A stretch of 37,505 nucleotides of DNA from a virus (Duplodnaviria; Heunggongvirae; Uroviricota; Caudoviricetes). The stretch is from the IMG/VR virus record IMGVR_UViG_2721755658_000003; one strand, given 5' to 3'. The notes beneath the pieces are model-generated. The model did not search any database. It was not told where the DNA came from and saw only the letters and a list, made by a program, of their open reading frames with translations. The position numbers and the translations under genes were made by a program. Position 1 is the stretch's first letter, and every line of letters starts with the position of its first letter. Of the stretch, positions 4,266 to 30,199 are shown in pieces.

Positions 4266-4747
4266 GACAGCAGCCCTCCCACCGTTTTACTGATATCGCT
4301 TAAAGCAGATGTTGCCGTTTCCTGCAGATTATTCAGTTGCGCACTGAGATCACCGAACATATCGGACAGGGATTCATCCACCCGTTTGAGCGACAGGGTG
4401 AACTCAATCCGGCGCGGCATACCGTCGCGGAAAAACTCCGTTTTAGTCTGATTCAGTCCCTCAATCACATACATGCCGTAAATCGTGCCGCTGCCTTCAA
4501 TCAGGGGCCATGCTTTCCCCTGTTCTGCCATCTGCTCCAGTGCCAGCAACGACAGCCTGCCGCCTGTTATCTCCGGCATAAGAACACCGGAAAGCGTCAG
4601 CATGTCGTTTTCCGGTCCCAGAAACTGCGTGGACGGACGTCGGTTTACCCGGCTGTTTGCCGCATGTCGCCAGCTGCGTTGATACTGCAGTTCCTGATAC
4701 GGCACGGTGCGCAGCATAAACACGTACAATCCTAGCACCATCATCAT
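4262..4747 (-). CDS. tail protein U
   Basis: 161-aa ORF with 4-nt overlap to D, immediately downstream of the tape measure gene, as in P2. Confidence 0.75.
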   Translation of the reverse strand: MMMVLGLYVFMLRTVPYQELQYQRSWRHAANSRVNRRPSTQFLGPENDMLTLSGVLMPEITGGRLSLLALEQMAEQGKAWPLIEGSGTIYGMYVIEGLNQTKTEFFRDGMPRRIEFTLSLKRVDESLSDMFGDLSAQLNNLQETATSALSDISKTVGGLLS

Positions 4748-7700
4748 GCGTCGTATCCCCCCTGATCGCTGTAGTTACTCCTGGCTTTTGCCTTCAGCCT
4801 GCGTTCACGTTCATCAAGCTGGCGTGCCACCTCCCGCGCAATATCCTGCGCACTTTGTCCTGGCTGCGTCTGAATGATGATCTGCGTCGGTGCCTCAATC
4901 CGTTGAACGGGCGGCACAGTTGCTGCACGACTCACCATCGCTTCGCCGCCTTTCGCGGGAAGTGCCAAAGGATGCAACGGTGGAAGCTCTGCAGGCGCGG
5001 CAGCAACCCCCATCATTCCGGCAACAACAGCAGCCAGTGCAGCTGTATTTCTCCGGCTGGTCACGTTTGCCGGGCCGTTAACAATTTCCGGCCCGTTTTC
5101 ACCGACGATGCCAAACTGCCCGCGCGGGATATAGCCGCCGCTGTCATACATCCCCGCAAAGCCATATCCCCATGACGGAAAACCACCCGATGGCATCATC
5201 ACTTTACCGTCGGCATTCACCGTCGCAGGTTGCTCACGCGTCACGCTTTCCGGCAGTTTTGCCTTTGCAGCCTCTTTACTGACAATGCCGAGTTTTTCCA
5301 GCAACCAGGAAACGCCGGATTTCAGGGAGTCCAGCGGATGCATAACCATATTCAGCCCTTCCGCCAGTGCCTCCCCGAATCGTCGCCCCATTGCCGCTGC
5401 GCTCTGCAGTTCGGCAGAGGTCGACTTAACGGGCATCAGCAGATCAGTAAACCAGCCCCACAACGCCTGCACTTTGTCGCCAATCCACTGAAACACAGGC
5501 TTAAGTGGTTCGAATGCTGCACTGATGGGACCTGCCGCCGCTTTGAATCCTTCCACCACACCAGCGAGAAATGCGGTGATGGGTTGCCAGTATTTCCAGA
5601 CAACCAGCGCCACGCCCGCCAGTGCAGTAACCACAAGACCTATCGGACTGAGCAGAGCACCTAACAGACCAGATATGGCATACAGGGCAACGCGCAGCAT
5701 CGCCAGCGGACCGGATGCCAGTACTCGCAGCACCGCGTCTGCGGCAGCCAGTCCACCGCGTAGTGCTGCCAGTGGATTCATAAACATCACAGCAACAGCA
5801 CGTAAACCGGATAATCCAGACCGCAACAGTGCAACCGGCACACCTGCTACAGTTTTCAGGACATTCCCCGTCAGTGATGCCGTGCGGCGCAAAGACGACA
5901 ACGGCGCAGTAAGTAAACCCGCTGCGTTGCCCGATGAAGCAAGCCCGCGTCGCAGCAGTGCCAGTGGAGCGTGAGCTAACCAGGATAACGCGCTGCTGGT
6001 TCGTGTTACTGCTGCCGTAACGGAAGGTAACGTTTTGATACCCAGCACAGAGAATCCCAGACGGATGACTGCCAGCGGCCCCAGCACAGCAGCCAACACC
6101 ACAGCCAGGGTGCCGAGGCCCACAGTAACAGCAGCCACAACCGCGGCTACTTTCATCAGTGTGCCCGTCAGTTCAGGGTTAGCTTCCACCCAGCGACGCA
6201 ACGCCCCCGTGATGCTTTTCACCGTGTACAGAATATCCATCAGCGGCTGGCGCAGCGTTTCGCCCAGGCTGCTGAAGGTGTTCTGCGCTCCGGTTTTGAC
6301 CAGCAACCACTGCGCAGAAAGTGAGTCCTTGTTAATGTCGGATTCTTTCTGCATCGAACCGAGCGCATCATTGCCCGCTGTCAGTTTTAGCTGGCGCTGC
6401 AGTTCCGGCAGGTTGTTTGCCAGTTTCGCCGCATCATCGCCAAACTCTTTACCAAACAACATGGTCATGGCAGACAGGCGCTTATCCTGCGGCAGTGCGT
6501 TCACCTTCTCCAGTACGCGCTGGATAGTTCCCATCGCATCCTTCGTCATCTGCTTTTCAATCACTTCAGGATTGAGTTTCAGCAGATTCATTCCTTCAAA
6601 GAAACTCTTGCTTTGCATGGTCGCAATGGACAATTCACGCACCATCGCGTTGGCAGCACTGGCAGCGACCTCCGGCGCAGCCCCCAGTGTCAGGAAGGTG
6701 GAACCCAGCGCCGCCGCTTTACGATAATCCAGACGATCAGCCACACCGCCCAGGCGTTGCATGACATCAATGATGTCTGCCCCTTTCGACATAGCGTTAT
6801 CATCCAGATAGTTCAGCGCATCACCGAGCTGTTCAATATTGCGGGTTGGTATTTTGTAGAGCTGGGCGATTTTCCCCAGACTTTCTGACAGTTCATCCGC
6901 TGGCAGCTCAAAGGCTGTTGCCGCCTTTGCTGCCGTACTGGCGAAGGCCAGCAGGTCACGTTTCTGGTCCTCCCAGCTGTCGTCAGGGTTTGCCACATTC
7001 ATGCGCGCACCACCTTCAACCAGTGCGGCGAAGTCCACAGCACCGTTTTCCATTGGCAGCTGTTCACTGGCAGCTTTGATGGCATCCTGCATTTCGTAAA
7101 AACGCGCAGTGCGGTTGCCATTATCGTCACGCAGACCATTGACCTGCTTTGCCACACCTTTCATGGCATCTTCCATGCTGGTATAGCTTTTTACCGCCGC
7201 CATCACTGGCGCGCCCATTGCCAGCCCTGCAGCCGTGGTGGTGGCTCCGGCTCCTGCGATGCGATCGCGCACTTCAAGCCGTCTTGAGTATTGTTCTCTG
7301 GCAGCGTTCATCCGTGCCTGTTGTTCACCCAGACGTTTAAGTGCTTTTTGCTGGCCCTCCAGTGCCTGACGAGTTTCTTCGGCATTTTTCTTAAGTTCTC
7401 GCTGGGCACTACTGAGTTGTCTGGTATCAATCCCTGATTCTTTAAGTGCCTGACGTTGTCTCTGGACCGCCCCCAACAAGCCGTTATAGGTCTGCTGAAG
7501 TTCCTGTACTCGTGTTTTGGCCTGACTGAATAACTTTGCCTGCGCGGCGGTTGGCCTGTTAGTGGCAGCAAATTGTGTGGCGAGTTTTGCCGCCTCTTCG
7601 CGGGCTGCGTTCAGGTTGTTGGCTGTTATGGCTAGTTGCGAGCGCGTCTTGCGAAATTCATCAATTCTGCCAGCCTGCTTATTCAGTTCTTTGAGGCTGT

Positions 7701-7821
7701 TTCGGGTATTCTGAATTGCGCCAGCCAGCTCTTTCGAACTGGCCTGTGCAGCACGGAATGGGCGGGTGAGTTTGTCAACCGCATTAAGAATGACCTGCAG
7801 GCGCAGGTTATTATCACTCAT
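4744..7821 (-). CDS. tail tape measure protein (gpT)
   Basis: 1025-aa ORF, coiled-coil-rich N-terminus and Ala/Leu/Gly-rich hydrophobic central region typical of tape measure proteins; follows E/E'. Confidence 0.85.
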   Translation of the reverse strand: MSDNNLRLQVILNAVDKLTRPFRAAQASSKELAGAIQNTRNSLKELNKQAGRIDEFRKTRSQLAITANNLNAAREEAAKLATQFAATNRPTAAQAKLFSQAKTRVQELQQTYNGLLGAVQRQRQALKESGIDTRQLSSAQRELKKNAEETRQALEGQQKALKRLGEQQARMNAAREQYSRRLEVRDRIAGAGATTTAAGLAMGAPVMAAVKSYTSMEDAMKGVAKQVNGLRDDNGNRTARFYEMQDAIKAASEQLPMENGAVDFAALVEGGARMNVANPDDSWEDQKRDLLAFASTAAKAATAFELPADELSESLGKIAQLYKIPTRNIEQLGDALNYLDDNAMSKGADIIDVMQRLGGVADRLDYRKAAALGSTFLTLGAAPEVAASAANAMVRELSIATMQSKSFFEGMNLLKLNPEVIEKQMTKDAMGTIQRVLEKVNALPQDKRLSAMTMLFGKEFGDDAAKLANNLPELQRQLKLTAGNDALGSMQKESDINKDSLSAQWLLVKTGAQNTFSSLGETLRQPLMDILYTVKSITGALRRWVEANPELTGTLMKVAAVVAAVTVGLGTLAVVLAAVLGPLAVIRLGFSVLGIKTLPSVTAAVTRTSSALSWLAHAPLALLRRGLASSGNAAGLLTAPLSSLRRTASLTGNVLKTVAGVPVALLRSGLSGLRAVAVMFMNPLAALRGGLAAADAVLRVLASGPLAMLRVALYAISGLLGALLSPIGLVVTALAGVALVVWKYWQPITAFLAGVVEGFKAAAGPISAAFEPLKPVFQWIGDKVQALWGWFTDLLMPVKSTSAELQSAAAMGRRFGEALAEGLNMVMHPLDSLKSGVSWLLEKLGIVSKEAAKAKLPESVTREQPATVNADGKVMMPSGGFPSWGYGFAGMYDSGGYIPRGQFGIVGENGPEIVNGPANVTSRRNTAALAAVVAGMMGVAAAPAELPPLHPLALPAKGGEAMVSRAATVPPVQRIEAPTQIIIQTQPGQSAQDIAREVARQLDERERRLKAKARSNYSDQGGYDA

Positions 7822-7991
7822 CGTTGGCCCCGCTTCTCTGAATCGCTTTATACCGCCATTCCAGCACTTCGGTCAGCGGCATAACGTCAGTAACGGATGG
7901 CGGCCAGTGAAAGATGGTGGCGATATCAGCCACCAGATCGTCAACCGTCAGGCTGTCGGTAAACCGGCAAGCACCGACTTCTTCAACAAAA
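7814..7991 (-). CDS. E' extension of tail assembly chaperone E+E' (programmed -1 frameshift product)
   Basis: Slippery heptamer TTTTTTG on the minus strand (plus coords 7985-7991) inside the end of gene E; the -1 frame stays open for ~56 codons and stops at a TGA overlapping the tape-measure ATG (hand-translated). Confidence 0.6.
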
Positions 7992-8250
7992 AAGTGACAA
8001 CCTCAACCGACATGGCAGTGAGATCTGCCGGGTCCATCTCTGCAATTTCCTGTGCAGTCAGTGCCGGACTGGAGATGCGGGGGATCACGGTCATCATCGC
8101 GTTCACATCCATATCCATAATGGCCTGCAGGCGTGTACCGCGCAGCGCACCGGACTGCGGTTTACGCAGCACAATTTCGGTGATTTCTGTTTTACCGCGC
8201 TTGATGGGGGTATCCAGTTGAATAGTCTTTTCAGTCTGCTTATCGCTCAT
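7948..8250 (-). CDS. tail assembly chaperone gpE
   Basis: 100-aa ORF between the tail tube and tape measure genes; P2 E-like position and size. Confidence 0.75.
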   Translation of the reverse strand: MSDKQTEKTIQLDTPIKRGKTEITEIVLRKPQSGALRGTRLQAIMDMDVNAMMTVIPRISSPALTAQEIAEMDPADLTAMSVEVVTFLLKKSVLAGLPTA

Positions 8251-10144: not shown

Positions 10145-10711
10145 TCAGGGCGATTCATTGCTCTCATTCGCCGGAAATTTTCTATAAATTGTGGAAACAC
10201 CTACATCAAAAATCAGTGCAATACGCTGTCTTGATTCTCCGGCCTCGAGTAAACGTCCAATCTGTGCCCACTGTTCGGTGGTCAACTTAGGACGGCGTCC
10301 ACCTACTCTGCCTTTGGCGCGAGCTGCAGCAAGCCCCGCCCTGGTACGTTCAACTATCAGTTCGCGCTCCATTTCAGCCAGGGCCCCCATGACATGAAAA
10401 AAGAAACGGCCCATTGGGGTACTGGTATCAATACTGTCAGTCAGGCTTCGGAAATTCACGCCACGCTGGCGCAGCTCTTCTATCAGCGTAACGAGATGCC
10501 GCATACTGCGCCCCAACCTGTCCAGCTTCCAGACAACCAGAGTGTCACCTGCCGATAATGTCCTGAGCAGTTTTTTCAGTCCCGGTCTGTCGGACTTAGT
10601 GCCACTGATTTTGTCCTCAAAAATCCGCTCACATCCCGCGCAGTTCAGTGCATTACGTTGCAAATCGGTGTTCTGGTCATTTGTTGACACGCGTACATAG
10701 CCAATAAGCAT
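10145..10711 (-). CDS. serine DNA invertase, Gin/Pin/Cin/Hin family
   Basis: N-terminus MLIGYVRVSTNDQNTDLQRNAL with catalytic Ser context and C-terminal HTH; very close to Mu Gin / e14 Pin by recall; adjacent to the inversion site. Confidence 0.9.
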   Translation of the reverse strand: MLIGYVRVSTNDQNTDLQRNALNCAGCERIFEDKISGTKSDRPGLKKLLRTLSAGDTLVVWKLDRLGRSMRHLVTLIEELRQRGVNFRSLTDSIDTSTPMGRFFFHVMGALAEMERELIVERTRAGLAAARAKGRVGGRRPKLTTEQWAQIGRLLEAGESRQRIALIFDVGVSTIYRKFPANESNESP

Positions 10712-10766
10712 GATCAATCCCCTGAATAAAAACCGGGGATGATGCCAGTTAGCCGTTATCTCTGCA

Positions 10767-11163: not shown

Positions 11164-11616
11164 GTGATTTATATGAACGAATATGTTTATAGCGCAAGGC
11201 ATAATGCTTTTTTCCCTGTGGATATGATTGATAAATATAAATCAGAGGGATGGGATTTATCAGACGCTAAGGAAGTAAATCAAAATATTATCAGTGAGTT
11301 TATGGCTGAACCGCCACAAGGAAAAATCCGTATTGCCGGAGATGATGGGCTGCCTGCGTGGGCAGATATTCCTCCACCCACGCATGAAGAACTTATTGAA
11401 ATTACTGAATCAGAAAGACAGCTACTAATTAACCAAGCCAACGAATACATGAACAGTAAGCAATGGCCCGGTAAAGCCGCTATTGGTCGTCTGAAAGATG
11501 ATGAACTGGCGCAATATAATTTGTGGCTGGATTATCTGGACGCACTGGAACTGGTTGATTCCTCCAGTGCGCCAGATATTGAATGGCCTACGCCTCCGGC
11601 AGTTCAGGCCAGATGA
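11164..11616 (+). CDS. alternative tail fibre assembly protein (U'-like)
   Basis: 150-aa ORF inside the invertible segment, convergent with and overlapping the 3' end of the minus-strand assembly gene; true start may be the Met at 11173. Confidence 0.7.
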   Translation: MIYMNEYVYSARHNAFFPVDMIDKYKSEGWDLSDAKEVNQNIISEFMAEPPQGKIRIAGDDGLPAWADIPPPTHEELIEITESERQLLINQANEYMNSKQWPGKAAIGRLKDDELAQYNLWLDYLDALELVDSSSAPDIEWPTPPAVQAR

Positions 11617-12190
11617 CATCCGGCGCGGTGCTGGTATCTGTTGCCGTCACCGCGTCAATGTAATCCAGCACAGCGTTAAGTCGGGTGGTTTCTGCCTGCG
11701 TCAGCTTCCGTCCGGCCTGTAGTTTCAGTTGAATCAGACTGATGGAAGCCATTGCTGCATCAATCAGTGACTGGCGCAGTGCTTCTGCCGCGTCTACTGC
11801 GGCATTATGCTGTGCCTCAGTATCTGTCACCCATTTCTCACCATCCCATTCATCGTATGGCGTTAACGGGGCAATAGTGGTCGTATTTTCAGGATAATCA
11901 CCCGGACCTGTGATTTCTTTCGATTCTCCTGTTTCGGTGCTATAAACGTTTTCACCGCGATGGTCTGGCACATATTCCCATGAGTTAAAATCTGCAGAAC
12001 GGCAAATTGCATAACCAGCTTTATATGAGCCAGGAGCATCTAAACAGGAATATGCAGGGATACCGACACCCACAGCAAGATATTCAGTTGATGCAGAAAT
12101 ATACTCCCGTGTTTCACCATCATAGTTATAGACAGTAATATTCCCCGCCTTCGTGGCAATAAGCTCGCCATTTAATACAGCGTTATCCAT
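11588..12190 (-). CDS. tail fibre assembly protein (gpG-like), active orientation
   Basis: 200-aa ORF immediately downstream of H with 1-nt overlap. Confidence 0.8.
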   Translation of the reverse strand: MDNAVLNGELIATKAGNITVYNYDGETREYISASTEYLAVGVGIPAYSCLDAPGSYKAGYAICRSADFNSWEYVPDHRGENVYSTETGESKEITGPGDYPENTTTIAPLTPYDEWDGEKWVTDTEAQHNAAVDAAEALRQSLIDAAMASISLIQLKLQAGRKLTQAETTRLNAVLDYIDAVTATDTSTAPDVIWPELPEA

Positions 12191-13740
12191 TATGCAGCCC
12201 TCACGATATAGTTAAATGCAATATTCCGTGGACGAGTTTCATTTATCCCATATGCTGTTGTTCTCTGATTCCCGACAAAATATCCATTTGGATTCGAAGA
12301 TACAGAGTAATCATCAAAATCAAGTGGACTATCAGCGCCCGGAGTCAGACTGGCAATATATCCTCTACCCATAACTTCTGATGCTGGTATTTCTTTTGTA
12401 CGATAATCACTGACTCTGAATATCTGCCCCTGATGAGTATGTAATTCTACCCCTCCATTCTGAATACTTAGCAGCGTACGTTCTGCATCAATGCCGCGCC
12501 CATCATCCCAGCCACGAATGAACTCACCACGTAAATCAGGCAATTTATTTGTCGGGTAAGCCTTTGCCAGTTCCGGGTATTCTTCAGCAGAAAAAGCCGC
12601 ACCGTTGCATTTCAGCCAGCCTGTTGGCGGAGTGGCGGAAGGCCACGGAACAGGAACACCAACGGGTAATGCCGAACCTTCTCCCAAACCAAGGTATGCG
12701 AGAAGACCAGCAACATCCTTTCCACTCAAATTGGTAAGCGTATTGTCCAGCGGTTGTTTACCTGCCAGCGCATTAAGCATTGTCGTGGCAAAGTTCGGAT
12801 CATTCCCCAGTGCCGCCGCCAGTTCGTTCAGTGTATCCAGTGCCGCAGGTGCAGAACCCACCATTGCTGCAATCGCTGATTTCACAAAAGCTGTAGTGGC
12901 AATCTGTGTATTGTTGACCGACTGTGCCGCAGTAGGTGCTGTTGGCGTTCCGGTGAGTGCCGGACTCGACAGCGGTGCTTTTAGTGCCAGCGCATTGTTA
13001 ATGGTGATACTGAATTTCGGGTCATTGTTAATGGCTGCGGCAATTTCTTTCAGTGTGTCCAGCGTGGCTGGCGCACCGTTAATCAGAGCAGTAATAGCGG
13101 CCTGAACAAACTCAGTGGTCGCAATCCGCGTGGTGTTATTTCCTGCTGCAGGCGTCGGCGCTTTTGGTTCTCCGGTAAATGTCGGATTATGTTTCTGCGC
13201 ATACTGGGTATGAGGATCTTGTGCGGCAATGTGGTTTCTCATCTGGTCATCCACATACAGCTTTAATTCCAGGACTTCATCATCCACGTATTTACGGGTT
13301 GCCAGCACTACAGCAGGGTCGATTTTCAGGGTGATATTGTCCGTACTGCTGGTAATCAGCACCATGCGCACGGTCTGGGTACGCCCGCTGCCTTCAGCCA
13401 GTTGCGGCTTATAGCTTTCCGGGCAGTTGCCCACGGCAATCAATGCCCCGGATTCATCAAACAGGCCTACTTCACGTATCCACCAACCACCCTCGTTTTC
13501 AGGGATCACCTGTTCAGCAATAATCTGACTGCTATTCTGCGGGTCGATATAGAGCATATTCAGCGCAGCCCGGCGTTTCTCATTTACCAGTGCCGTCTGC
13601 TTTGCGTCCGGCGCTGGCAATGTTCCGCCGCCATCGCCGACCGCCATATGGGTAATTTTTACAGGCACACCGAGCGCGGCGGCGCTGGCAAGTTTCGCCG
13701 CGCCAATATCCGTCAGCAGGGTATAAAATTTTGTGCTCAT
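12190..13740 (-). CDS. tail fibre protein (gpH-like)
   Basis: 516-aa ORF; conserved N-terminal region resembling P2 H and repeated tail-fibre motifs (NDPNFATTMLNALAGKQP); C-terminal third lies inside the invertible segment. Confidence 0.85.
   Translation of the reverse strand: MSTKFYTLLTDIGAAKLASAAALGVPVKITHMAVGDGGGTLPAPDAKQTALVNEKRRAALNMLYIDPQNSSQIIAEQVIPENEGGWWIREVGLFDESGALIAVGNCPESYKPQLAEGSGRTQTVRMVLITSSTDNITLKIDPAVVLATRKYVDDEVLELKLYVDDQMRNHIAAQDPHTQYAQKHNPTFTGEPKAPTPAAGNNTTRIATTEFVQAAITALINGAPATLDTLKEIAAAINNDPKFSITINNALALKAPLSSPALTGTPTAPTAAQSVNNTQIATTAFVKSAIAAMVGSAPAALDTLNELAAALGNDPNFATTMLNALAGKQPLDNTLTNLSGKDVAGLLAYLGLGEGSALPVGVPVPWPSATPPTGWLKCNGAAFSAEEYPELAKAYPTNKLPDLRGEFIRGWDDGRGIDAERTLLSIQNGGVELHTHQGQIFRVSDYRTKEIPASEVMGRGYIASLTPGADSPLDFDDYSVSSNPNGYFVGNQRTTAYGINETRPRNIAFNYIVRAA
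12679..12704. repeat. inversion crossover site 2 (gix/cix-like), inside tail fibre gene H
   Basis: TTCTCCCAAACCAAGGTATGCGAGAA, itself an imperfect dyad; inverted repeat of site 1; encodes AYLGLGEG in the H frame. Confidence 0.65.
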
Positions 13741-18740: not shown

Positions 18741-19164
18741 GTTTCACCGTCCACATTTCTTCAGGTTCATCAGGTTCCTCTATAGCTTCAACGCTCGACA
18801 CACTGCCGTCAGTGCTGACCAGCACACGCTCCGTCAGTTGCAGGTTGAGGCTGATATCACAGACATCGTTGCGCAGAATATCCACCTCAAAGGTGAATAG
18901 CTTTTCCCGTAACGCCGGGTTATTGATGGCATCGGGCTGGTTATCACTCAGCCACAGCAAAACCGGGGCCATCAGCAGATTCTGGTCGCCGCTGAAATCC
19001 TCAATCACCACGTTCAGGGTGTAGCGGTACTCCCATGACATGGAGCTGGCCCCCGTGGCAACCAGCGAACCGTTATCCACAAACAGATGCAGTTTGTCCG
19101 GGTTATTGCGGACATAAGGCACCGCTTTATTGAGGGCGTGGCGCAGGGATTGTGGTTTGTTCAC
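18733..19164 (-). CDS. tail completion protein (gpR-like)
   Basis: P2 R-like sequence (FVDNGS, RYTLNVVI); start probably the GTG at 19164 preceded by AGGAG rather than the ATG at 19185. Confidence 0.7.
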   Translation of the reverse strand: MNKPQSLRHALNKAVPYVRNNPDKLHLFVDNGSLVATGASSMSWEYRYTLNVVIEDFSGDQNLLMAPVLLWLSDNQPDAINNPALREKLFTFEVDILRNDVCDISLNLQLTERVLVSTDGSVSSVEAIEEPDEPEEMWTVKRG

Positions 19165-19417
19165 TGTTTCGCTCCTGACACGCAATAATCATGTCCACTT
19201 TGTCTGCACAGACCGCCCAGGCGGCCTCCGTTTCATCCAGCAACGCATTCAGATCACCGTTAGTGCGCGGTGCTGCCTGCTCCAGCCGACACGGCGTCAC
19301 TCGCGGACAACCACTGACGGTAAGCTGCACCTCCGGTGAGTGCCGGACGTTCCCGCAGCCGGATAATGTCAGCAGGCAAAGGAGTATCAGCCCAGTGGCG
19401 TAAATCCTCGTTCTCAC
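19127..19417 (-). CDS. LysC-like o-spanin (Rz1-type lipoprotein) embedded in lysB
   Basis: 96-aa ORF in an alternate frame of lysB with lipoprotein signal and lipobox (LLTLSGC); P2 lysC is also 96 aa and overlaps R. Confidence 0.65.
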   Translation of the reverse strand: MRTRIYATGLILLCLLTLSGCGNVRHSPEVQLTVSGCPRVTPCRLEQAAPRTNGDLNALLDETEAAWAVCADKVDMIIACQERNSEQTTIPAPRPQ

Positions 19418-19688
19418 GTTTCAGTTCCTCGATCCGGCGTTGTCGTTGTCTCAGCTGTGCGCTGGTCTGTTCTGCTTCGGCATAGAGCCGCGCCTGCTCC
19501 CGGTTATTGGTTTCAGTCAGAATGGACAGGCTGATAAGCTGGCTGTTGCTCTTTGCCAGTGCCTGGCTTTTGCTCTGCAGCTCGTTTGCCTGCGTGCTGA
19601 TGGTCTGGCTGGCATCAGCCAGCCGCCACGTCTGCCAGCCCAGCGCCGCCAGTAATAACGCCAGCACAACCAGCAGCAACCGGTTCAT
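19260..19688 (-). CDS. LysB-like i-spanin (Rz-type)
   Basis: 142-aa ORF with N-terminal transmembrane segment and coiled-coil remainder. Confidence 0.7.
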   Translation of the reverse strand: MNRLLLVVLALLLAALGWQTWRLADASQTISTQANELQSKSQALAKSNSQLISLSILTETNNREQARLYAEAEQTSAQLRQRQRRIEELKRENEDLRHWADTPLPADIIRLRERPALTGGAAYRQWLSASDAVSAGAGSTAH

Positions 19689-27072: not shown

Positions 27073-28512
27073 TCATTTTATAGAATCAAGGTTATCGGCG
27101 TTCATCATACTTTCAAAACCAGTTCCCATACGTCCATATCTAACCCCTGAATTATGCATACTCTGAGCGCCGGCCTTAACCTTCAATTTGATCTCTTGCG
27201 CTGACGCTATCCCAGCAATCATTGCTAAATATTCAAAATACTTATGCTGTGTCGCTCTTAAAAATAGTTCAGGTCTATAATTATAACTCGCATAATAAAT
27301 AGTGCATGGATACCAATAGACACCATCATTACAAAATGAATAAAAAAGAACTAGCACATCAGCCTGCATAAGATCAGAAAAGGTAATATCTTCCCTATCT
27401 GCATTTCTTTTAATTAGCTCTGCAACTGGAGAGTAATACCTTATATCTTCTTCAAAACCTGCCTGTAGCGTTTCAGAATCAGCTAAGAAAGCGCTAATTG
27501 ACACGAGTCTATGTTCCGGTGGTAACTGCCTATCACCAGAAAGGAATCTGGCAGATAAAATCGCACGTACTAATTGAAACTTCTCTAATCTAATCAATAT
27601 AGCAACTGAATATAAGAAAATTTCGTATGCAAATACCTTTTGTGCATCATACCAGTTTAATTGCCATGAACTGACATCGCTAGGAGCTTCGGTTAGTAAC
27701 AGAACTTTTTCAAAGAACTTTACTAGTTCTGTTGAAAATTCATCCTGCATCGTAAACTCTGCCTCAAGAGTTATCCATTCACACACATAATCCCTGATAG
27801 GCTTCATGGCAGCAACGTCGCTAATTATTTTCCTACCCATGCTTTGCAAATCATTTTGCTCTGGGCGAGCTCGGATTCTCATCCCGTCAAGGTACTTGAC
27901 TACTGAATCAACGAAATCACGCCGATAATAACTAACACCTGCCCTATTTTGCAAAACAGCTTGTTTCAAGCTATTAAATTTTGCGTGTGGTTCACTCACC
28001 GGATCATATTGCCCACTATCTAAATAACTGGGTCTTTTTCCAAGCTTAGGTTTTATATCTGCTGGTTTTCCATTAAGCAGCCTTACTAACCGTTCCCAAT
28101 TTTGATTTTCTTTTTCTGGTGTTGAAAGGTCAATCCATATTAACGAACTCATAAAAACAGGAAGACAAGGTTCTGAATTCTCATCAAATTCACAAACAAT
28201 AGGTATAAATTTTGATTGTTCGACTTTTGTGTAGACTTGTTGAGAGATGATCTGGGATTCTGTGCCAACCCCACTTTGTTTGTTATCAGCTTTTTTTGCG
28301 TAAACTGAATCACACATCACAAGCACATTGGTGATACTTTTATCAACAATCATTTTTTCCATGAATGCGTTTTTATCATTGCCCTCCTTCAAATCATATA
28401 TGTCAATGACAACATCCACTCCATCACTCAAAAGTCTATCAGCTATTGCTTTAACTCTTTCCTTATGAGCTGGGCTACTCCAACTATATGATATAAAAAC
28501 TTTTGGCGTCAT
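27073..28512 (-). CDS. accessory protein with N-terminal SEFIR/TIR-like domain and uncharacterised C-terminal region; candidate defence protein
   Basis: N-terminus MTPKVFISYSWSSPAHKERVKAIADRLLSDGVDVVIDIYDL matches the SEFIR/TIR_2 signature; AT-rich; lies between cos and the portal gene. Confidence 0.65.
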   Translation of the reverse strand: MTPKVFISYSWSSPAHKERVKAIADRLLSDGVDVVIDIYDLKEGNDKNAFMEKMIVDKSITNVLVMCDSVYAKKADNKQSGVGTESQIISQQVYTKVEQSKFIPIVCEFDENSEPCLPVFMSSLIWIDLSTPEKENQNWERLVRLLNGKPADIKPKLGKRPSYLDSGQYDPVSEPHAKFNSLKQAVLQNRAGVSYYRRDFVDSVVKYLDGMRIRARPEQNDLQSMGRKIISDVAAMKPIRDYVCEWITLEAEFTMQDEFSTELVKFFEKVLLLTEAPSDVSSWQLNWYDAQKVFAYEIFLYSVAILIRLEKFQLVRAILSARFLSGDRQLPPEHRLVSISAFLADSETLQAGFEEDIRYYSPVAELIKRNADREDITFSDLMQADVLVLFYSFCNDGVYWYPCTIYYASYNYRPELFLRATQHKYFEYLAMIAGIASAQEIKLKVKAGAQSMHNSGVRYGRMGTGFESMMNADNLDSIK

Positions 28513-28723
28513 ACTCAGTCCTTATCGAATTTATTAGGTACTTGAGCACAAGTTACTGCTCACAGAGTTTTTCAGCAAGTTCTGTTCGCATCGGCAACAC
28601 CTGCGCTATTAGCTGCTCAGCAGCATTCTGCAGAGTGCTCTCCTTTTACCTGCAATTTAGACAGAAGTTGTCAACGTACCGGAGATTGCGCCGGATTTTC
28701 GCCATTTAACCCCGTTGCGCGCG

Positions 28724-28742
28724 CTCGTATCCCCGCCACGCC
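28724..28742 (-). other. cos-like cohesive-end site
   Basis: Minus-strand GGCGTGGCGGGGATACGAG followed by CGCGCGC resembles the P2 cohesive end GGCGAGGCGGGGAAAGCAC...GCGCGC as recalled from memory. Confidence 0.5.
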
Positions 28743-28782
28743 TGCCCGCTTTATGTAGTGGTTTTCATGCACCTGCATGATC

Positions 28783-28811
28783 TACGCAAAAGCCCGCCAG
28801 AACTGGCGGGC
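28783..28811 (-). terminator. terminator-like hairpin downstream of the lipoprotein gene
   Basis: Stem GCCCGCCAG / CTGGCGGGC followed on the minus strand by TTTTG. Confidence 0.35.
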
Positions 28812-28915
28812 CTTAACACAAAAGATCCTCAAACGATCATGCGATCTCATGCAGCATAGACATGCGCGTTTATGCAGAATGTGCAAAATCGTAACATACT
28901 CAGCAAGCGTGAAAC

Positions 28916-29593
28916 CTAGAACGTGACAGCCTTGTCAAAGCCAGAAATAATTGTATAAGAAATAGACGAGTTATCAGCCTTGTTCACTTTGAACTTGGCA
29001 CCTTTGTAAGCGATAACGTCACTTCCCTTAGAATCTACAGAAAAATCTGTTGTAAATGCTGCACGAGCCATATCGTTTGCAAATTCACGATAGGTGAACT
29101 TCATTACACCGCCTGCATTTCCATTGTATTCGATAGTCTTAACCAATGAGTTACTAACTCGACACAGCCCATCAGGAACACGTTTGATAGAAATTTCTGA
29201 TGCAGTATAAGAAGTACCATTTGGCGGTGATATCTCATTTTTTGCAGCATCGTAACTAACATAATCAACATAGTTACCGATTTGCCCATAGAGATTTTTT
29301 AACGCAACAGCTTGAGGGTTATGATAATTGCGGTAAATTCCATTCCCCTCACTGCAATATGTACCAGCAGCGATAGAAGACAATGCACCATTAGCCGCAC
29401 CAAGTTCTAGTACGTCCGTTTTAAATCCAGTAGCAGATGTGATAATGGGATCGCCCATGTAGGCGGTAGCACTTTGCCCAATAGCAGGCTTCACCACTTC
29501 AATAGCAGTGATATTTCGGTTAGAAGCATGTGGCACGCAACCAGTTAGGATTACAGCAAGAGATATTGGTAACGCTACATTATTAATTTTCAT
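28916..29593 (-). CDS. accessory lipoprotein of unknown function
   Basis: Start at MKINNVALPISLAVILTGC (ATG 29593) giving signal peptide plus lipobox LTGC; C-terminal aromatic residue; AT-rich. Confidence 0.6.
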   Translation of the reverse strand: MKINNVALPISLAVILTGCVPHASNRNITAIEVVKPAIGQSATAYMGDPIITSATGFKTDVLELGAANGALSSIAAGTYCSEGNGIYRNYHNPQAVALKNLYGQIGNYVDYVSYDAAKNEISPPNGTSYTASEISIKRVPDGLCRVSNSLVKTIEYNGNAGGVMKFTYREFANDMARAAFTTDFSVDSKGSDVIAYKGAKFKVNKADNSSISYTIISGFDKAVTF

Positions 29594-29616
29594 TTTTAGC
29601 CTATTATTCTTTTCTT

Positions 29617-29651
29617 GACAAAAAACAAGGCGATATCTGATTGACATCGCC
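29617..29651 (-). terminator. rho-independent terminator after the DinI-like gene
   Basis: Minus-strand hairpin GGCGATGTC...GATATCGCC followed by TTGTTTTTTG. Confidence 0.45.
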
Positions 29652-29706
29652 TCTCACTCATATGTAACCCTTTTTGATTAGTAAAAACAAGCGTCTATTG
29701 ACAAAA

Positions 29707-29940
29707 TCAATGCAGCCAGCTGTCGTCTTCCCACACCTTCTGCATAATTTTCATCACTTGTTTTCTTTCTTCGTCCAGTTGCAGTCCGGTCAGTTCCACA
29801 CCGTTAGAGCTACCTTTACGGATACGGATTACCGTTTTGGGATACAGGGGGCGCAGATTGCGGTAAAGCTCGGATTCAAGGGCGTCCAGGGTAGACTGGC
29901 TAATCTTCTGCTCTTTATCGATCATTATTTCAATGCGCAT
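29707..29940 (-). CDS. DinI-like protein
   Basis: Start at MRIEIMIDKEQ with SD GAGGTGA 5 nt upstream; resembles E. coli DinI (MRIEVTIAK...QETWE) in length and pattern. Confidence 0.65.
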   Translation of the reverse strand: MRIEIMIDKEQKISQSTLDALESELYRNLRPLYPKTVIRIRKGSSNGVELTGLQLDEERKQVMKIMQKVWEDDSWLH

Positions 29941-29950
29941 AAAAGTCACC

Positions 29951-30139
29951 TCAGTTGATGACATCCATTGAGCGGTTGTATTCGTGGCTTCTGATTTTTG
30001 CCATGAGTTCATCAGTCAATTCAGAAACCCACTGCAGAGCCAGCCCCTTCTCTTCATCACTACACTCACTAGCCGCTACAAGCTTAAGAAAAAAATCAAT
30101 GCGCTGGAGCTTCAAAGACTCCAAAAAATAGTCCTGCAT
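29951..30139 (-). CDS. small SOS-controlled hypothetical protein, first gene of the LexA-box operon
   Basis: 62-aa ORF with strong SD (AGGAGGAAAG) and a LexA box 43 bp upstream. Confidence 0.5.
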   Translation of the reverse strand: MQDYFLESLKLQRIDFFLKLVAASECSDEEKGLALQWVSELTDELMAKIRSHEYNRSMDVIN

Positions 30140-30181
30140 CTTTCCTCCTATGACACCACACGCAATACTGTATGTATAACC

Positions 30182-30199
30182 ACTGTTTATATTTACAGT
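30182..30199 (-). promoter_or_regulatory. LexA (SOS) box overlapping the promoter of the small-ORF/DinI-like operon
   Basis: ACTGTTTATATTTACAGT has a perfect CTGT-N8-ACAG core; overlaps a -10-like TATACT and a TTTACA -35 on the minus strand; a second degenerate box overlaps at 30166-30185. Confidence 0.7.

What the first reader, a model, noticed from the sequence alone, without database searches (positions are those of the whole stretch)
28916..29660. Accessory lipoprotein gene in the cos-to-A hotspot
A ~225-aa AT-rich ORF with a classic lipoprotein signal (MKINNVALPISLAVILTGC) and a C-terminal aromatic residue sits between the SOS operon and cos, flanked by its own terminator-like hairpins. 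Prophage lipoproteins at such positions are often superinfection-exclusion or receptor-masking factors, or lysogenic-conversion surface proteins. I recognise no family.
Basis: inference. Interest (0 to 1): 0.45.

Follow-up and report, generated by a model that had tools for sequence, protein, structure and literature searches.

The report
Orphan prophage outer-membrane lipoprotein cassette
This is a real, strongly conserved gene for an outer-membrane lipoprotein of unknown function, carried as a one-gene add-on in the defence-gene hotspot of a P2/186-type prophage; it was already catalogued but never tested, and most likely blocks other phages at the cell envelope.

Summary
On the minus strand, 28916-29593 encodes a 225-aa lipoprotein precursor with lipobox LTGC. 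The mechanical 243-aa ORF starts inside a hairpin and is not coding. The gene is AT-rich and under strong purifying selection (dN/dS about 0.05). It forms an 843-bp one-gene cassette (28866-29708) between a LexA-box tum/dinI operon and cos.

It is not new as a sequence. It is Fels-2 STM2726, PHROG 1353, and 'system 44' of the published E. coli P2-hotspot catalogue, listed there with a signal peptide but not among the tested systems.

It is independent of the bSEFIR defence gene beyond cos: that cargo swaps (AbiU, retron, bSEFIR) while the lipoprotein stays the same. Its own slot is empty in about half of close relatives. Elsewhere that slot holds DarTG, 3HP, KAP-NTPase and other cargo.

Function is inferred, not shown. 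The best guess (about 0.4) is exclusion of other phages at the envelope. Interest is moderate.

The parts
28916..29593 (-). Lipoprotein coding sequence. The precursor is 225 aa, with signal peptide plus lipobox LTGC and the lipidated Cys at residue 19. The mature protein is about 206 aa and all-beta.
   Evidence: ORF. Start supported by homologue N-termini, the RefSeq CDS and the 1-nt indel upstream. dN/dS about 0.05. PHROG 1353, E 3e-105. AF2 model pLDDT 80.3.
29616..29653 (-). Hairpin with an 11-bp stem plus U-tract, lying between the dinI stop and the lipoprotein ATG. It looks like an intrinsic terminator or attenuator and is part of the cassette.
   Evidence: Terminator scan. Fold -16.6 kcal/mol, z -4.3. 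Compensatory C-G to U-A change in E. coli NCTC11121. Absent from the lipoprotein-less relative.
28866..29708 (-). The whole 843-bp insertion cassette: 5' leader, hairpin, CDS and about 50 nt of 3' tail. E. coli QDFD216 has 83 bp here instead.
   Evidence: BLAST breakpoints against L003 and the L003 sequence.
28782..28814 (-). GC-rich terminator hairpin shared with lipoprotein-less relatives. It is the backbone terminator of the SOS operon and serves as the 3' end of the lipoprotein transcript.
   Evidence: Fold -23.6 kcal/mol, z -4.6. Present in L003.
28724..28742 (-). cos core (GGCGTGGCGGGGATACGAG). It marks the boundary between the right-end slot (lipoprotein) and the left-end slot (bSEFIR).
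   Evidence: Sequence. Similar to the P4/P2 cos in PMC9122126 Table S2. The motif lies about 174-177 nt after the lipoprotein stop in all P2-like loci. Identity to Fels-2 and 4LV2017 begins at 28715-28717.
29707..30198 (-). Upstream SOS operon: LexA box at 30183-30198, a 62-aa ORF at 29951-30139, and a DinI/Tum-like gene at 29707-30012.
   Evidence: Exact CTGT-N8-ACAG match. Pfam DinI E 1e-22 and PHROG 189. Fels-2 annotation 'TumB-like'.
27073..28512 (-). bSEFIR defence gene in the neighbouring cos-to-Q slot. It is an independent module and not part of the lipoprotein unit.
   Evidence: PADLOC bSEFIR E 2e-104 and Pfam SEFIR/TIR_2. It occurs without the lipoprotein in E. coli. The lipoprotein occurs with AbiU or a retron instead.

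Best explanation
Window 28866-29708 is a self-contained one-gene accessory cassette. It sits in the right-end hotspot (dinI/tum to cos) of a 186-type P2-like prophage.

The product.
- Shown from sequence: a Sec/Lgt/LspA-type lipoprotein precursor with Cys19 lipidated. No Asp at +2, so the Lol pathway should send it to the outer membrane.
- Modelled: a tether of about 10 residues, then an all-beta body. The N-terminal half is variable and the C-terminal 70 residues are highly conserved.
- Inferred: the two invariant Cys residues form a disulfide.

How it acts.
- Shown by distribution: it works alone and independently of the bSEFIR gene on the other side of cos.
- Inferred (about 0.4): it is an envelope-level anti-phage (superinfection-exclusion) factor. 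The mature protein is entirely extracytoplasmic, so it can only interfere with steps between adsorption and genome entry. It would do this by binding a conserved outer-membrane or periplasmic component, or an incoming tail or ejection protein.
- It does not mask the receptor of its own phage.

Expression (inferred). The gene is transcribed at least partly by read-through of the attenuating hairpin from the LexA-controlled tum/dinI promoter, so its level rises on SOS induction. That is when Tum inactivates CI and repressor immunity is lost.
For: A real gene encoding a lipoprotein:
- Invariant G18-C19 lipobox and invariant C80 and C144 in 22 homologues.
- No Asp at +2 in any of the 33 of 44 family members where the lipobox pattern was found; mature proteins mostly carry 2 or 4 Cys.
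- dN/dS 0.04-0.07.

Cassette and independence from bSEFIR:
- Breakpoints at 28866 and 29708.
- Among 59 IMG/VR loci, the P2-like ones share the order A, orf62, DinI, lipoprotein, cos, variable cargo, Q. The lipoprotein is 100% identical on backbones whose gpA is 87-99% and Q 85-100% identical.
- The cargo beyond cos is bSEFIR here, AbiU in Fels-2 and a type II-A retron in 4LV2017.

The slot is a defence hotspot. In 80 phages with identical DinI:
- 36 have an empty slot.
- 10 carry this lipoprotein.
- Others carry DarTG, the 3HP system, a KAP-NTPase (PDC-S49), PDC-S31 or PDC-M18A.
- P2 itself carries tin and old between A and Q, and roughly a third or more of tested hotspot systems defended (PMC9122126).

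Nearer relatives ride other mobile elements:
- Serine-recombinase prophages, next to an OLD-like nuclease.
- Siphovirus prophages of K. aerogenes and Acinetobacter, in the moron site before the tape-measure gene.
- A Prim-Pol/VapE satellite-like island in Aeromonas.
- A Vibrio cassette array with NERD, KAP and ParE genes.

SOS coupling:
- LexA box.
- All three genes STM2726-2728 rose with the mutagen MX, from 14.8-fold down to 2.6-fold (PMC2225428).
Against: - No experiment links this protein to phage resistance. The published catalogue lists it but did not test it.
- PADLOC has no model for it.
- It has no sequence or fold relation to any known exclusion lipoprotein.
- Distant homologues in Woeseia, Nitrospirales and Bacteroidota are chromosomal singletons among ordinary genes. 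The ancestral role is therefore probably not anti-phage.
- No recognisable promoter lies between the hairpin and the ATG. If expression depends on SOS read-through, levels in a quiet lysogen may be too low for constant protection.
- Hotspots also carry non-defence cargo, such as partition systems and toxins (PMC9122126).
Confidence: 0.4

Rival explanations
1. It is a lysogenic-conversion factor that benefits the host rather than blocking phages. As an outer-membrane lipoprotein it would raise serum or complement resistance, envelope-stress tolerance or adhesion, as lambda Bor and plasmid TraT do.
For: - Same cellular address and, for TraT, a similar size. Prophage morons of this kind are known (general knowledge; PMC3594210 listed).
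- The carriers are Salmonella, Klebsiella and E. coli, many from clinical sources.
- Long-term retention at one locus with strong purifying selection looks more like a stable trait than fast-swapping defence cargo: orthologues of 79-88% identity occupy the same slot in diverged P2-like phages.
Against: - It is not homologous to Bor or TraT. Pfam finds nothing; hhalign matches Bor only over the signal peptide and gives TraT a probability of 14%.
- Family members also occur in marine and environmental bacteria, where serum resistance is irrelevant.
- Its slot-mates are defence systems.
Confidence: 0.2
2. It is an orphan immunity or inhibitor protein. It would protect the periplasm from an incoming antibacterial enzyme, such as a bacteriocin, a type VI effector, a lysozyme or a phage tail lysin.
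For: - It is a periplasm-facing lipoprotein with likely disulfide(s), and it is a stand-alone single gene.
- In the Vibrio cassette array it lies near a WapI immunity gene and a ParE toxin.
- Orphan immunity genes are known to collect on mobile elements (general knowledge).
Against: - No cognate toxin gene lies next to any family member in about 30 independent neighbourhoods examined.
- There is no similarity to the known inhibitor families in Pfam.
Confidence: 0.12
3. It serves the phage's own lytic cycle after SOS induction, for example by preventing progeny from re-adsorbing to debris (as T5 Llp does) or by helping envelope disruption.
For: - It lies directly downstream of the LexA-controlled tum/dinI operon.
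- It was co-induced by a DNA-damaging agent.
Against: - It is missing from most close relatives: 36 of 80 slots are empty and only 49 of 5,426 E. coli genomes carry it, against 1,287 with the flank.
- It does not co-vary with the tail-fibre receptor-binding region.
- The window has a complete holin, endolysin, LysB and LysC set elsewhere.
- The family also occurs outside phages.
Confidence: 0.08
4. It is a second component of the neighbouring bSEFIR defence system.
For: The two genes are adjacent, on the same strand and both AT-rich. The exact pairing recurs in 2 IMG/VR contigs (L042 and L051).
Against: - cos and a strong terminator lie between them, so in virion DNA they sit at opposite ends.
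- bSEFIR occurs without the lipoprotein.
- The lipoprotein occurs with AbiU, a retron or no cargo.
Confidence: 0.02

Closest known systems
T5 Llp and phi80/N15/HK022 Cor (phage superinfection-exclusion lipoproteins that inactivate FhuA)
   Same: A phage-encoded outer-membrane lipoprotein, a single gene that acts alone outside the cytoplasm. This is the mechanism proposed here.
   Different: - Llp and Cor are about 60-80 aa, sit next to the receptor-binding gene of siphoviruses and match that phage's own receptor.
- This protein is about 206 aa when mature and has an unrelated sequence. PHROGs gives only family 1353, of unknown function.
- It lies in the cos hotspot of a myovirus and does not co-vary with the tail fibre.
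TraT (F-like plasmid surface-exclusion and complement-resistance lipoprotein, PF05818)
   Same: An outer-membrane lipoprotein of similar length (243-aa precursor), carried by a mobile element, that excludes incoming DNA at the cell surface.
   Different: There is no homology: no Pfam hit and an hhalign probability of 14%. TraT is plasmid-borne and linked to the tra operon.
Lambda Bor / Iss (PF06291)
   Same: A prophage moron that encodes an outer-membrane lipoprotein expressed from the lysogen.
   Different: Bor is 97 aa. Only the signal peptide and lipobox align.
P2 tin and old, and the other cargo of the P2 A-to-Q hotspot (DarTG, 3HP, retrons, bSEFIR)
   Same: The same genomic slot next to cos, with the same presence/absence and swapping behaviour.
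   Different: All of those act in the cytoplasm on nucleic acids or metabolism. This cargo is exported and lipid-anchored.
T4 Sp (spackle) and TP-J34 Ltp (extracytoplasmic blockers of genome entry)
   Same: Exported or lipid-anchored phage proteins that stop superinfecting phage after adsorption by binding a tail lysozyme or the tape measure. This is an alternative version of the proposed mechanism.
   Different: No sequence relation was detected. Ltp comes from Gram-positive phages. No target is known for the protein studied here.

Membership tests
Bacterial lipoprotein (Lgt/LspA/Lnt substrate), Lol-sorted to the outer membrane | N-terminal signal peptide ending in a lipobox [LVI][ASTVI][GAS]C, with a conserved Cys | tested here: met
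   MKINNVALPISLAVILTGC. G18 and C19 are invariant in 22 homologues. A strict lipobox pattern matched 33 of 44 wider family members.
Bacterial lipoprotein (Lgt/LspA/Lnt substrate), Lol-sorted to the outer membrane | No Asp at +2 (the inner-membrane retention signal in Enterobacteriaceae) | tested here: met
   +2 is Val here. It is Ala, Val, Ile, Ser, Thr, Asn, Lys, Gln, Leu or Tyr in relatives, never Asp.
Bacterial lipoprotein (Lgt/LspA/Lnt substrate), Lol-sorted to the outer membrane | Actual acylation and outer-membrane location | not testable with these tools
   This needs globomycin sensitivity, palmitate labelling and membrane fractionation.
Moron (independent transcription unit added to a phage genome) | Presence/absence polymorphism with sharp breakpoints and a deviant base composition | tested here: met
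   An 843-bp cassette replaces 83 bp in the relative. G+C is about 0.40 against about 0.53. The slot is empty in 36 of 80 relatives.
Moron (independent transcription unit added to a phage genome) | Own promoter and own terminator | tested here: inconclusive
   No promoter with both hexamers fits upstream of the ATG. The downstream terminator belongs to the backbone. The cassette does bring an upstream hairpin.
P2-like A-to-Q (cos-proximal) hotspot cargo (Rousset et al. 2022) | Variable gene(s) between gpA and gpQ, next to cos | tested here: met
   The order is A, orf62, DinI, lipoprotein, cos, cargo, Q. A protein with the same motifs and near-identical printed sequence is listed as system 44, with 84 occurrences and signal peptide 'yes'.
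PHROG 1353 | Full-length profile match | tested here: met
   E 3.1e-105, residues 1-223 on profile positions 1-230 of 230. The family is annotated 'unknown function'.
Cor / Llp exclusion lipoproteins | Sequence membership; small size (about 60-80 aa); gene next to the receptor-binding protein gene; matched to the phage's own receptor | tested here: not met
   PHROGs and Pfam return no such family. The mature protein is about 206 aa. The gene lies at cos, far from the tail fibre gene at 12190-13740. The lipoprotein is 99% identical to that of Fels-2, while the C-terminal half of the fibre finds no match there.
Lambda Bor / Iss (PF06291) | Profile match over the mature domain | tested here: not met
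   No Pfam hit. hhalign aligns 21 columns, all within the signal peptide and lipobox.
TraT (PF05818) | Profile match | tested here: not met
   No Pfam hit. hhalign probability is 14% over 30 columns.
Outer spanin (Rz1 / P2 LysC) | Short lipoprotein embedded in or next to the inner-spanin gene within the lysis cassette | tested here: not met
   The window has LysB at 19266-19688 and LysC at 19130-19348, next to the endolysin and holin. The lipoprotein gene is about 9 kb away and its product is about 206 aa when mature.
Integral outer-membrane beta-barrel protein (suggested by the C-terminal Phe) | C-terminal aromatic signature conserved across the family, a membrane-spanning barrel fold, and no lipobox | tested here: not met
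bSEFIR defence system (as an accessory component) | Obligate co-occurrence with the SEFIR gene | tested here: not met
   Each gene occurs without the other.

The most novel reading that the evidence does not exclude
The protein founds a new, widespread family of single-protein defences that act at the envelope. It would be an outer-membrane lipoprotein with a fold that matches no solved structure. Its conserved C-terminal 70-residue module would dock onto a conserved envelope component, and its variable N-terminal half would set specificity. The family has been picked up repeatedly by P2-like phages, siphoviruses, serine-recombinase prophages, satellites and cassette arrays. In 186-type phages it would be wired to the SOS/Tum switch, so that exclusion rises exactly when repressor immunity is switched off.
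Probability: 0.3. Interest if true: 0.65.

Novelty: new variant of a known kind. Interest (0 to 1): 0.4.

Why it matters
Almost all cargo characterised so far in the P2/P4 hotspots acts inside the cell. An exported, lipid-anchored cargo would add an envelope layer to this well-studied defence reservoir.

The family is large: 2,434 clusters at 50% identity. It has no Pfam entry, no structure and no annotation. One phenotype would therefore name a sizeable piece of bacterial 'dark matter'.

The gene sits in prophages of clinical Klebsiella, Salmonella and E. coli. An exclusion or surface-modifying function there would bear on the choice of therapeutic phages.

If it proves to have no anti-phage role, it is a useful counter-example to inferring function from hotspot location alone.

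Tried and rejected
- Pfam, NCBIfam and PADLOC on the protein, and Pfam on 10 and then 44 distant relatives, found no family.
- A PDB sequence profile search found nothing better than E of about 1.
- The afdb50 library was not available.
- hhalign against lambda Bor and F TraT was negative.
- Rfam found no RNA family around the hairpins.
- The 243-aa reading was rejected.
- A promoter between the hairpin and the ATG was rejected. The only scan hit, TTGTCA-N18-AAAAAT, ends on the start codon.
- A two-gene system with bSEFIR was rejected.
- A spanin role was rejected.
- Masking of the phage's own receptor is disfavoured.
- The search for a conserved neighbour among distant homologues found none. 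The only recurrence is ybbA-ybbP-tesA nearby in Pseudoalteromonas and Nitrospirales, which is too thin to use.
- A genome scan with the 44-sequence alignment failed for lack of a conserved stretch. It worked with a 12-sequence alignment.
- P0016 was not on record, and AP001918 was not in the plasmid collection.
- Literature searches for STM2726, EcHS_A0921, WP_000700647 and prophage lipoprotein exclusion found no functional study.
Full report
**1. What is in the sequence**

The window is a 186-type P2-like prophage. It carries a CI repressor, CII, Dam methylase, gpA, portal, terminase, tail genes and an integrase, and a host permease gene lies at the left end. Its closest backbone is Klebsiella phage 4LV2017, at 96% over 84% of the right-hand 17.5 kb.

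The finding is a minus-strand ORF ending at 28916. The mechanical ORF is 243 aa from ATG 29647, but the true start is ATG 29593 (225 aa, MKINNVALPISLAVILTGC...). The reasons are:
- 29647 lies in the 5' arm of a stable hairpin.
- Phage 4LV2017 has a 1-nt insertion between the two ATGs, which would break the longer frame while the 225-aa frame stays intact.
- All homologues start at the MK... position.
- RefSeq annotates 678 bp.
- A weak AGG lies 6 nt before ATG 29593.

G+C is 0.39-0.44 over the gene, against 0.51-0.56 in the backbone. Against orthologues of 97, 96, 88 and 79% identity, dN/dS is 0.053, 0.065, 0.056 and 0.040. This is a functional gene, not a chance ORF.

**2. Anatomy of the locus**

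Upstream lies an SOS-type operon. It has an exact LexA box, CTGTTTATATTTACAG, at 30183-30198. A 62-aa ORF (PHROG 698) and a DinI/Tum-like gene follow (Pfam DinI E 1e-22).

Between the dinI stop (29707) and the lipoprotein ATG lies an 11-bp hairpin plus U-tract at 29653-29616 (-16.6 kcal/mol, z -4.3). Its pairing is kept by a compensatory C-G to U-A change in a 94%-identical E. coli variant.

Downstream, at about 28814-28782, is a GC-rich terminator (-23.6 kcal/mol, z -4.6). The cos core GGCGTGGCGGGGATACGAG follows at about 28742-28724. It closely matches the P4/P2 cos printed in PMC9122126 Table S2.

Beyond cos, between cos and the portal gene Q, lies a 479-aa bSEFIR defence gene (PADLOC E 2e-104).

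E. coli QDFD216 has the same bSEFIR and DinI but no lipoprotein. Comparison with it gives exact cassette limits: window 28866-29708 (843 bp) is replaced there by 83 bp. The upstream hairpin therefore belongs to the cassette. The downstream terminator and cos belong to the backbone.

**3. Two independent slots**

Identity to Fels-2 and 4LV2017 begins at 28715-28717, that is at cos.

- *Left of cos.* The cargo differs between phages: bSEFIR here, AbiU in Fels-2, and a type II-A retron (RT plus NDT) in 4LV2017.
- *IMG/VR survey.* Of 59 loci that encode the lipoprotein, all the P2-like ones show the order A, orf62, DinI, lipoprotein, cos (about 175 nt after the stop), 0.2-3.4 kb of variable cargo, then Q. 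The lipoprotein is 100% identical on backbones whose gpA is 87-99% and Q 85-100% identical. Orthologues of 88% and 79% occupy the same slot in more distant P2-like phages.
- *Right slot (dinI stop to cos).* I surveyed 80 phages with an identical DinI protein:

| Content of the slot | Phages |
|---|---|
| Empty (204-205 nt) | 36 |
| This lipoprotein | 10 |
| A 141-aa secreted protein | 10 |
| A 111-aa acidic protein | 8 |
| PDC-M18A plus a membrane protein | 4 |
| DarTG | 2 |
| The 3HP system (Hp1/Hp2) | 2 |
| A 2-TM protein (catalogue system 43) | 2 |
| KAP NTPase (PDC-S49) | 1 |
| DUF2971 protein (PDC-S31) | 1 |
| GNAT acetyltransferase | 1 |
| DUF6236 protein | 1 |
| cos motif not found | 2 |

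The lipoprotein is thus one alternative cargo of a slot that is itself a defence hotspot, and it is not a partner of bSEFIR.

In complete E. coli genomes, 49 of 5,426 carry the gene, against 1,287 that carry the flanking backbone.

**4. The protein**

- *Lipoprotein signal.* The lipobox G18-C19 is invariant, as are C80 and C144. In the wider family +2 is never Asp, and mature proteins mostly carry 2 or 4 Cys. By the established +2 rule this predicts a Lol-sorted outer-membrane lipoprotein with disulfide(s), hence an extracytoplasmic protein.
- *Model.* AlphaFold2 gives mean pLDDT 80.3, with 103 residues at 90 or above. Residues 1-27 are disordered, which fits a signal peptide plus a short tether. 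The remainder consists of 17 beta strands with no helix.
- *No sequence family.* Pfam, NCBIfam, PADLOC and the PDB sequence profile search all find nothing. Only PHROG 1353, of 'unknown function', matches full-length.
- *Direct tests.* Lambda Bor aligns only over the signal peptide, and F TraT gets a probability of 14%.
- *Not the spanin.* The window has its own holin, endolysin, LysB and LysC.

**5. The family**

An exhaustive profile search finds 2,434 clusters at 50% identity with E <= 1e-3, of which 1,256 have E <= 1e-10. Nearly all are 210-240 aa. The C-terminal 70 residues are far more conserved than the N-terminal body, at 2.7 against about 1.5 bits per column. The conserved pattern is IEYNGxxGxxLxFxYREFxxDxARxAFTxxFxxDLxExxxIxYKGAxIxVxxAxNxxIxYxV. 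Every name given by a source is 'hypothetical protein' or 'lipoprotein', apart from one UniRef label, 'DKNYY family protein'.

Nearer relatives (about 25-60% identity, Gammaproteobacteria) sit on several unrelated mobile elements:
- Serine-recombinase prophages of Citrobacter/Klebsiella and Pantoea, beside an OLD-like nuclease and membrane proteins.
- Siphovirus prophages of K. aerogenes and Acinetobacter, in the moron site between the tail chaperone or antirepressors and the tape-measure gene.
- A satellite-like island with integrase and Prim-Pol/VapE in Aeromonas.
- A Vibrio harveyi cassette array with NERD, KAP NTPase, DUF2971, ParE and WapI genes.

Distant relatives (Woeseia, Nitrospirales, Bacteroidota, Shewanella, Methylotuvimicrobium) are chromosomal singletons among ordinary genes, with no conserved neighbour.

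**6. What was already known**

- The gene is Fels-2 STM2726, 99% identical at the nucleotide level.
- It is present, 95-99% identical, in RE-2010 and in 24 Klebsiella P2-like phage records.
- The exact protein is seen on at least 1,000 contigs.
- Rousset et al. 2022 (PMC9122126) list it in Table S5B as system 44 of the P2 hotspot: one protein, no Pfam family, 84 occurrences, signal peptide 'yes'. Its sequence does not appear in their table of cloned systems, so it was catalogued but not tested.
- I found no functional study.
- One array study of Salmonella treated with the mutagen MX reports that all three genes of 'operon STM2726-STM2727-STM2728' were significantly induced. The range ran from 14.8-fold for STM2727, the DinI-like gene, down to 2.6-fold (PMC2225428).

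**7. How it most likely works**

*Shown.* It is a single exported, lipid-anchored protein. It is mobile as a one-gene cassette and independent of its neighbours. It is under purifying selection. It lies in a slot otherwise filled with defence systems.

*Inferred.* The mature protein never sees the cytoplasm. If it defends, it must therefore act at adsorption, envelope penetration or genome entry. I put envelope-level exclusion of heterologous phages at about 0.4.

It is unlikely to mask its own phage's receptor. Between this prophage and Fels-2 the lipoprotein is 99% identical, yet the C-terminal half of the tail fibre and its assembly protein find no match, and CI is only 41% identical.

*Transcription is unresolved.* No promoter with both hexamers fits in the 24 nt between the U-tract and the ATG. 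Attenuated read-through from the LexA-controlled promoter is the simplest reading and agrees with the array data. If true, exclusion would rise just as Tum inactivates CI and repressor immunity lapses. That link is my inference.

*Rivals.*
- Host-benefit conversion factor, about 0.2.
- Orphan immunity or inhibitor against periplasm-acting toxins or lysins, about 0.12.
- A role in the phage's own lytic cycle, about 0.08.
- A bSEFIR partner, about 0.02.

The remaining probability is 'something else'. The chromosomal distribution of distant relatives warns that the ancestral role is probably a general envelope function.

**8. Verdict**

As a sequence the gene is already known and catalogued. As a kind of thing it is a prophage outer-membrane lipoprotein moron, which is a known kind. 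It belongs to none of the known families and has no fold match, so I rate it a new variant of a known kind.

Interest is moderate (0.4). It is not surprising to a specialist, but it is a well-delimited and cheap-to-test candidate that stands for a large unannotated family.

Noticed in passing
window 27073-28512 (minus strand): A 479-aa bSEFIR anti-phage gene (PADLOC E 2e-104; Pfam SEFIR/TIR_2) fills the cos-to-Q slot. Lipoprotein-bearing relatives hold AbiU (Fels-2) or a type II-A retron (4LV2017) in the same slot.
   Followed up: partly
window 30183-30198 and 29707-30139: An exact LexA box, CTGTTTATATTTACAG, lies upstream of a 62-aa ORF and a DinI/Tum-like gene. This is a 186-style SOS induction operon. 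The Fels-2 homologue STM2727 was induced 14.8-fold by the mutagen MX.
   Followed up: partly
IMG/VR loci L109 (5394-5819, minus) and L110 (5427-5762, minus): In phages with the same DinI, the dinI-to-cos slot often holds other unannotated small genes on the opposite strand. One is a 141-aa protein with a clear signal peptide (10 loci). Another is a 111-aa acidic protein (8 loci). Neither has a Pfam or PADLOC hit.
   Followed up: partly
L002 (Klebsiella phage 4LV2017, KY271398) 5001-5678: The lipoprotein gene is intact in this GenBank record, but only a 63-aa fragment is annotated there. In Fels-2 and some Salmonella and E. coli records it is annotated with the spurious 243-aa start.
   Followed up: yes
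L013 (Pseudoalteromonas) and L016, L017, L018, L028 (Nitrospirales): In two unrelated lineages, distant chromosomal homologues lie one or two genes from a ybbA-ybbP-tesA-like cluster (MacB-type ABC transporter plus periplasmic thioesterase). This is too few cases to interpret.
   Followed up: partly
protein collection cluster of the window protein: The 90%-identity cluster that holds this lipoprotein is represented by, and mixed with, branched-chain amino acid transaminases of 308 aa. This is evidently a clustering artefact of the collection, and it explains why the exact protein was not returned as its own hit in the first homology search.
   Followed up: no
window 10145-10717 (minus) with 11588-13740: A Cin/Gin-type DNA invertase (86% identical to Fels-2 STM2702) lies next to the tail-fibre and fibre-assembly genes. 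The fibre's C-terminal half and its assembly protein differ completely from those of Fels-2. This suggests an invertible host-range segment.
   Followed up: no
L099-L101 (K. aerogenes) and L105 (Acinetobacter) at about 4700-8200: Siphovirus prophages carry a moron island between the tail chaperone and the tape-measure gene. It holds Arc-like repressors, Bro-N/P22-type and pRha antirepressors, and a homologue of this lipoprotein.
   Followed up: no
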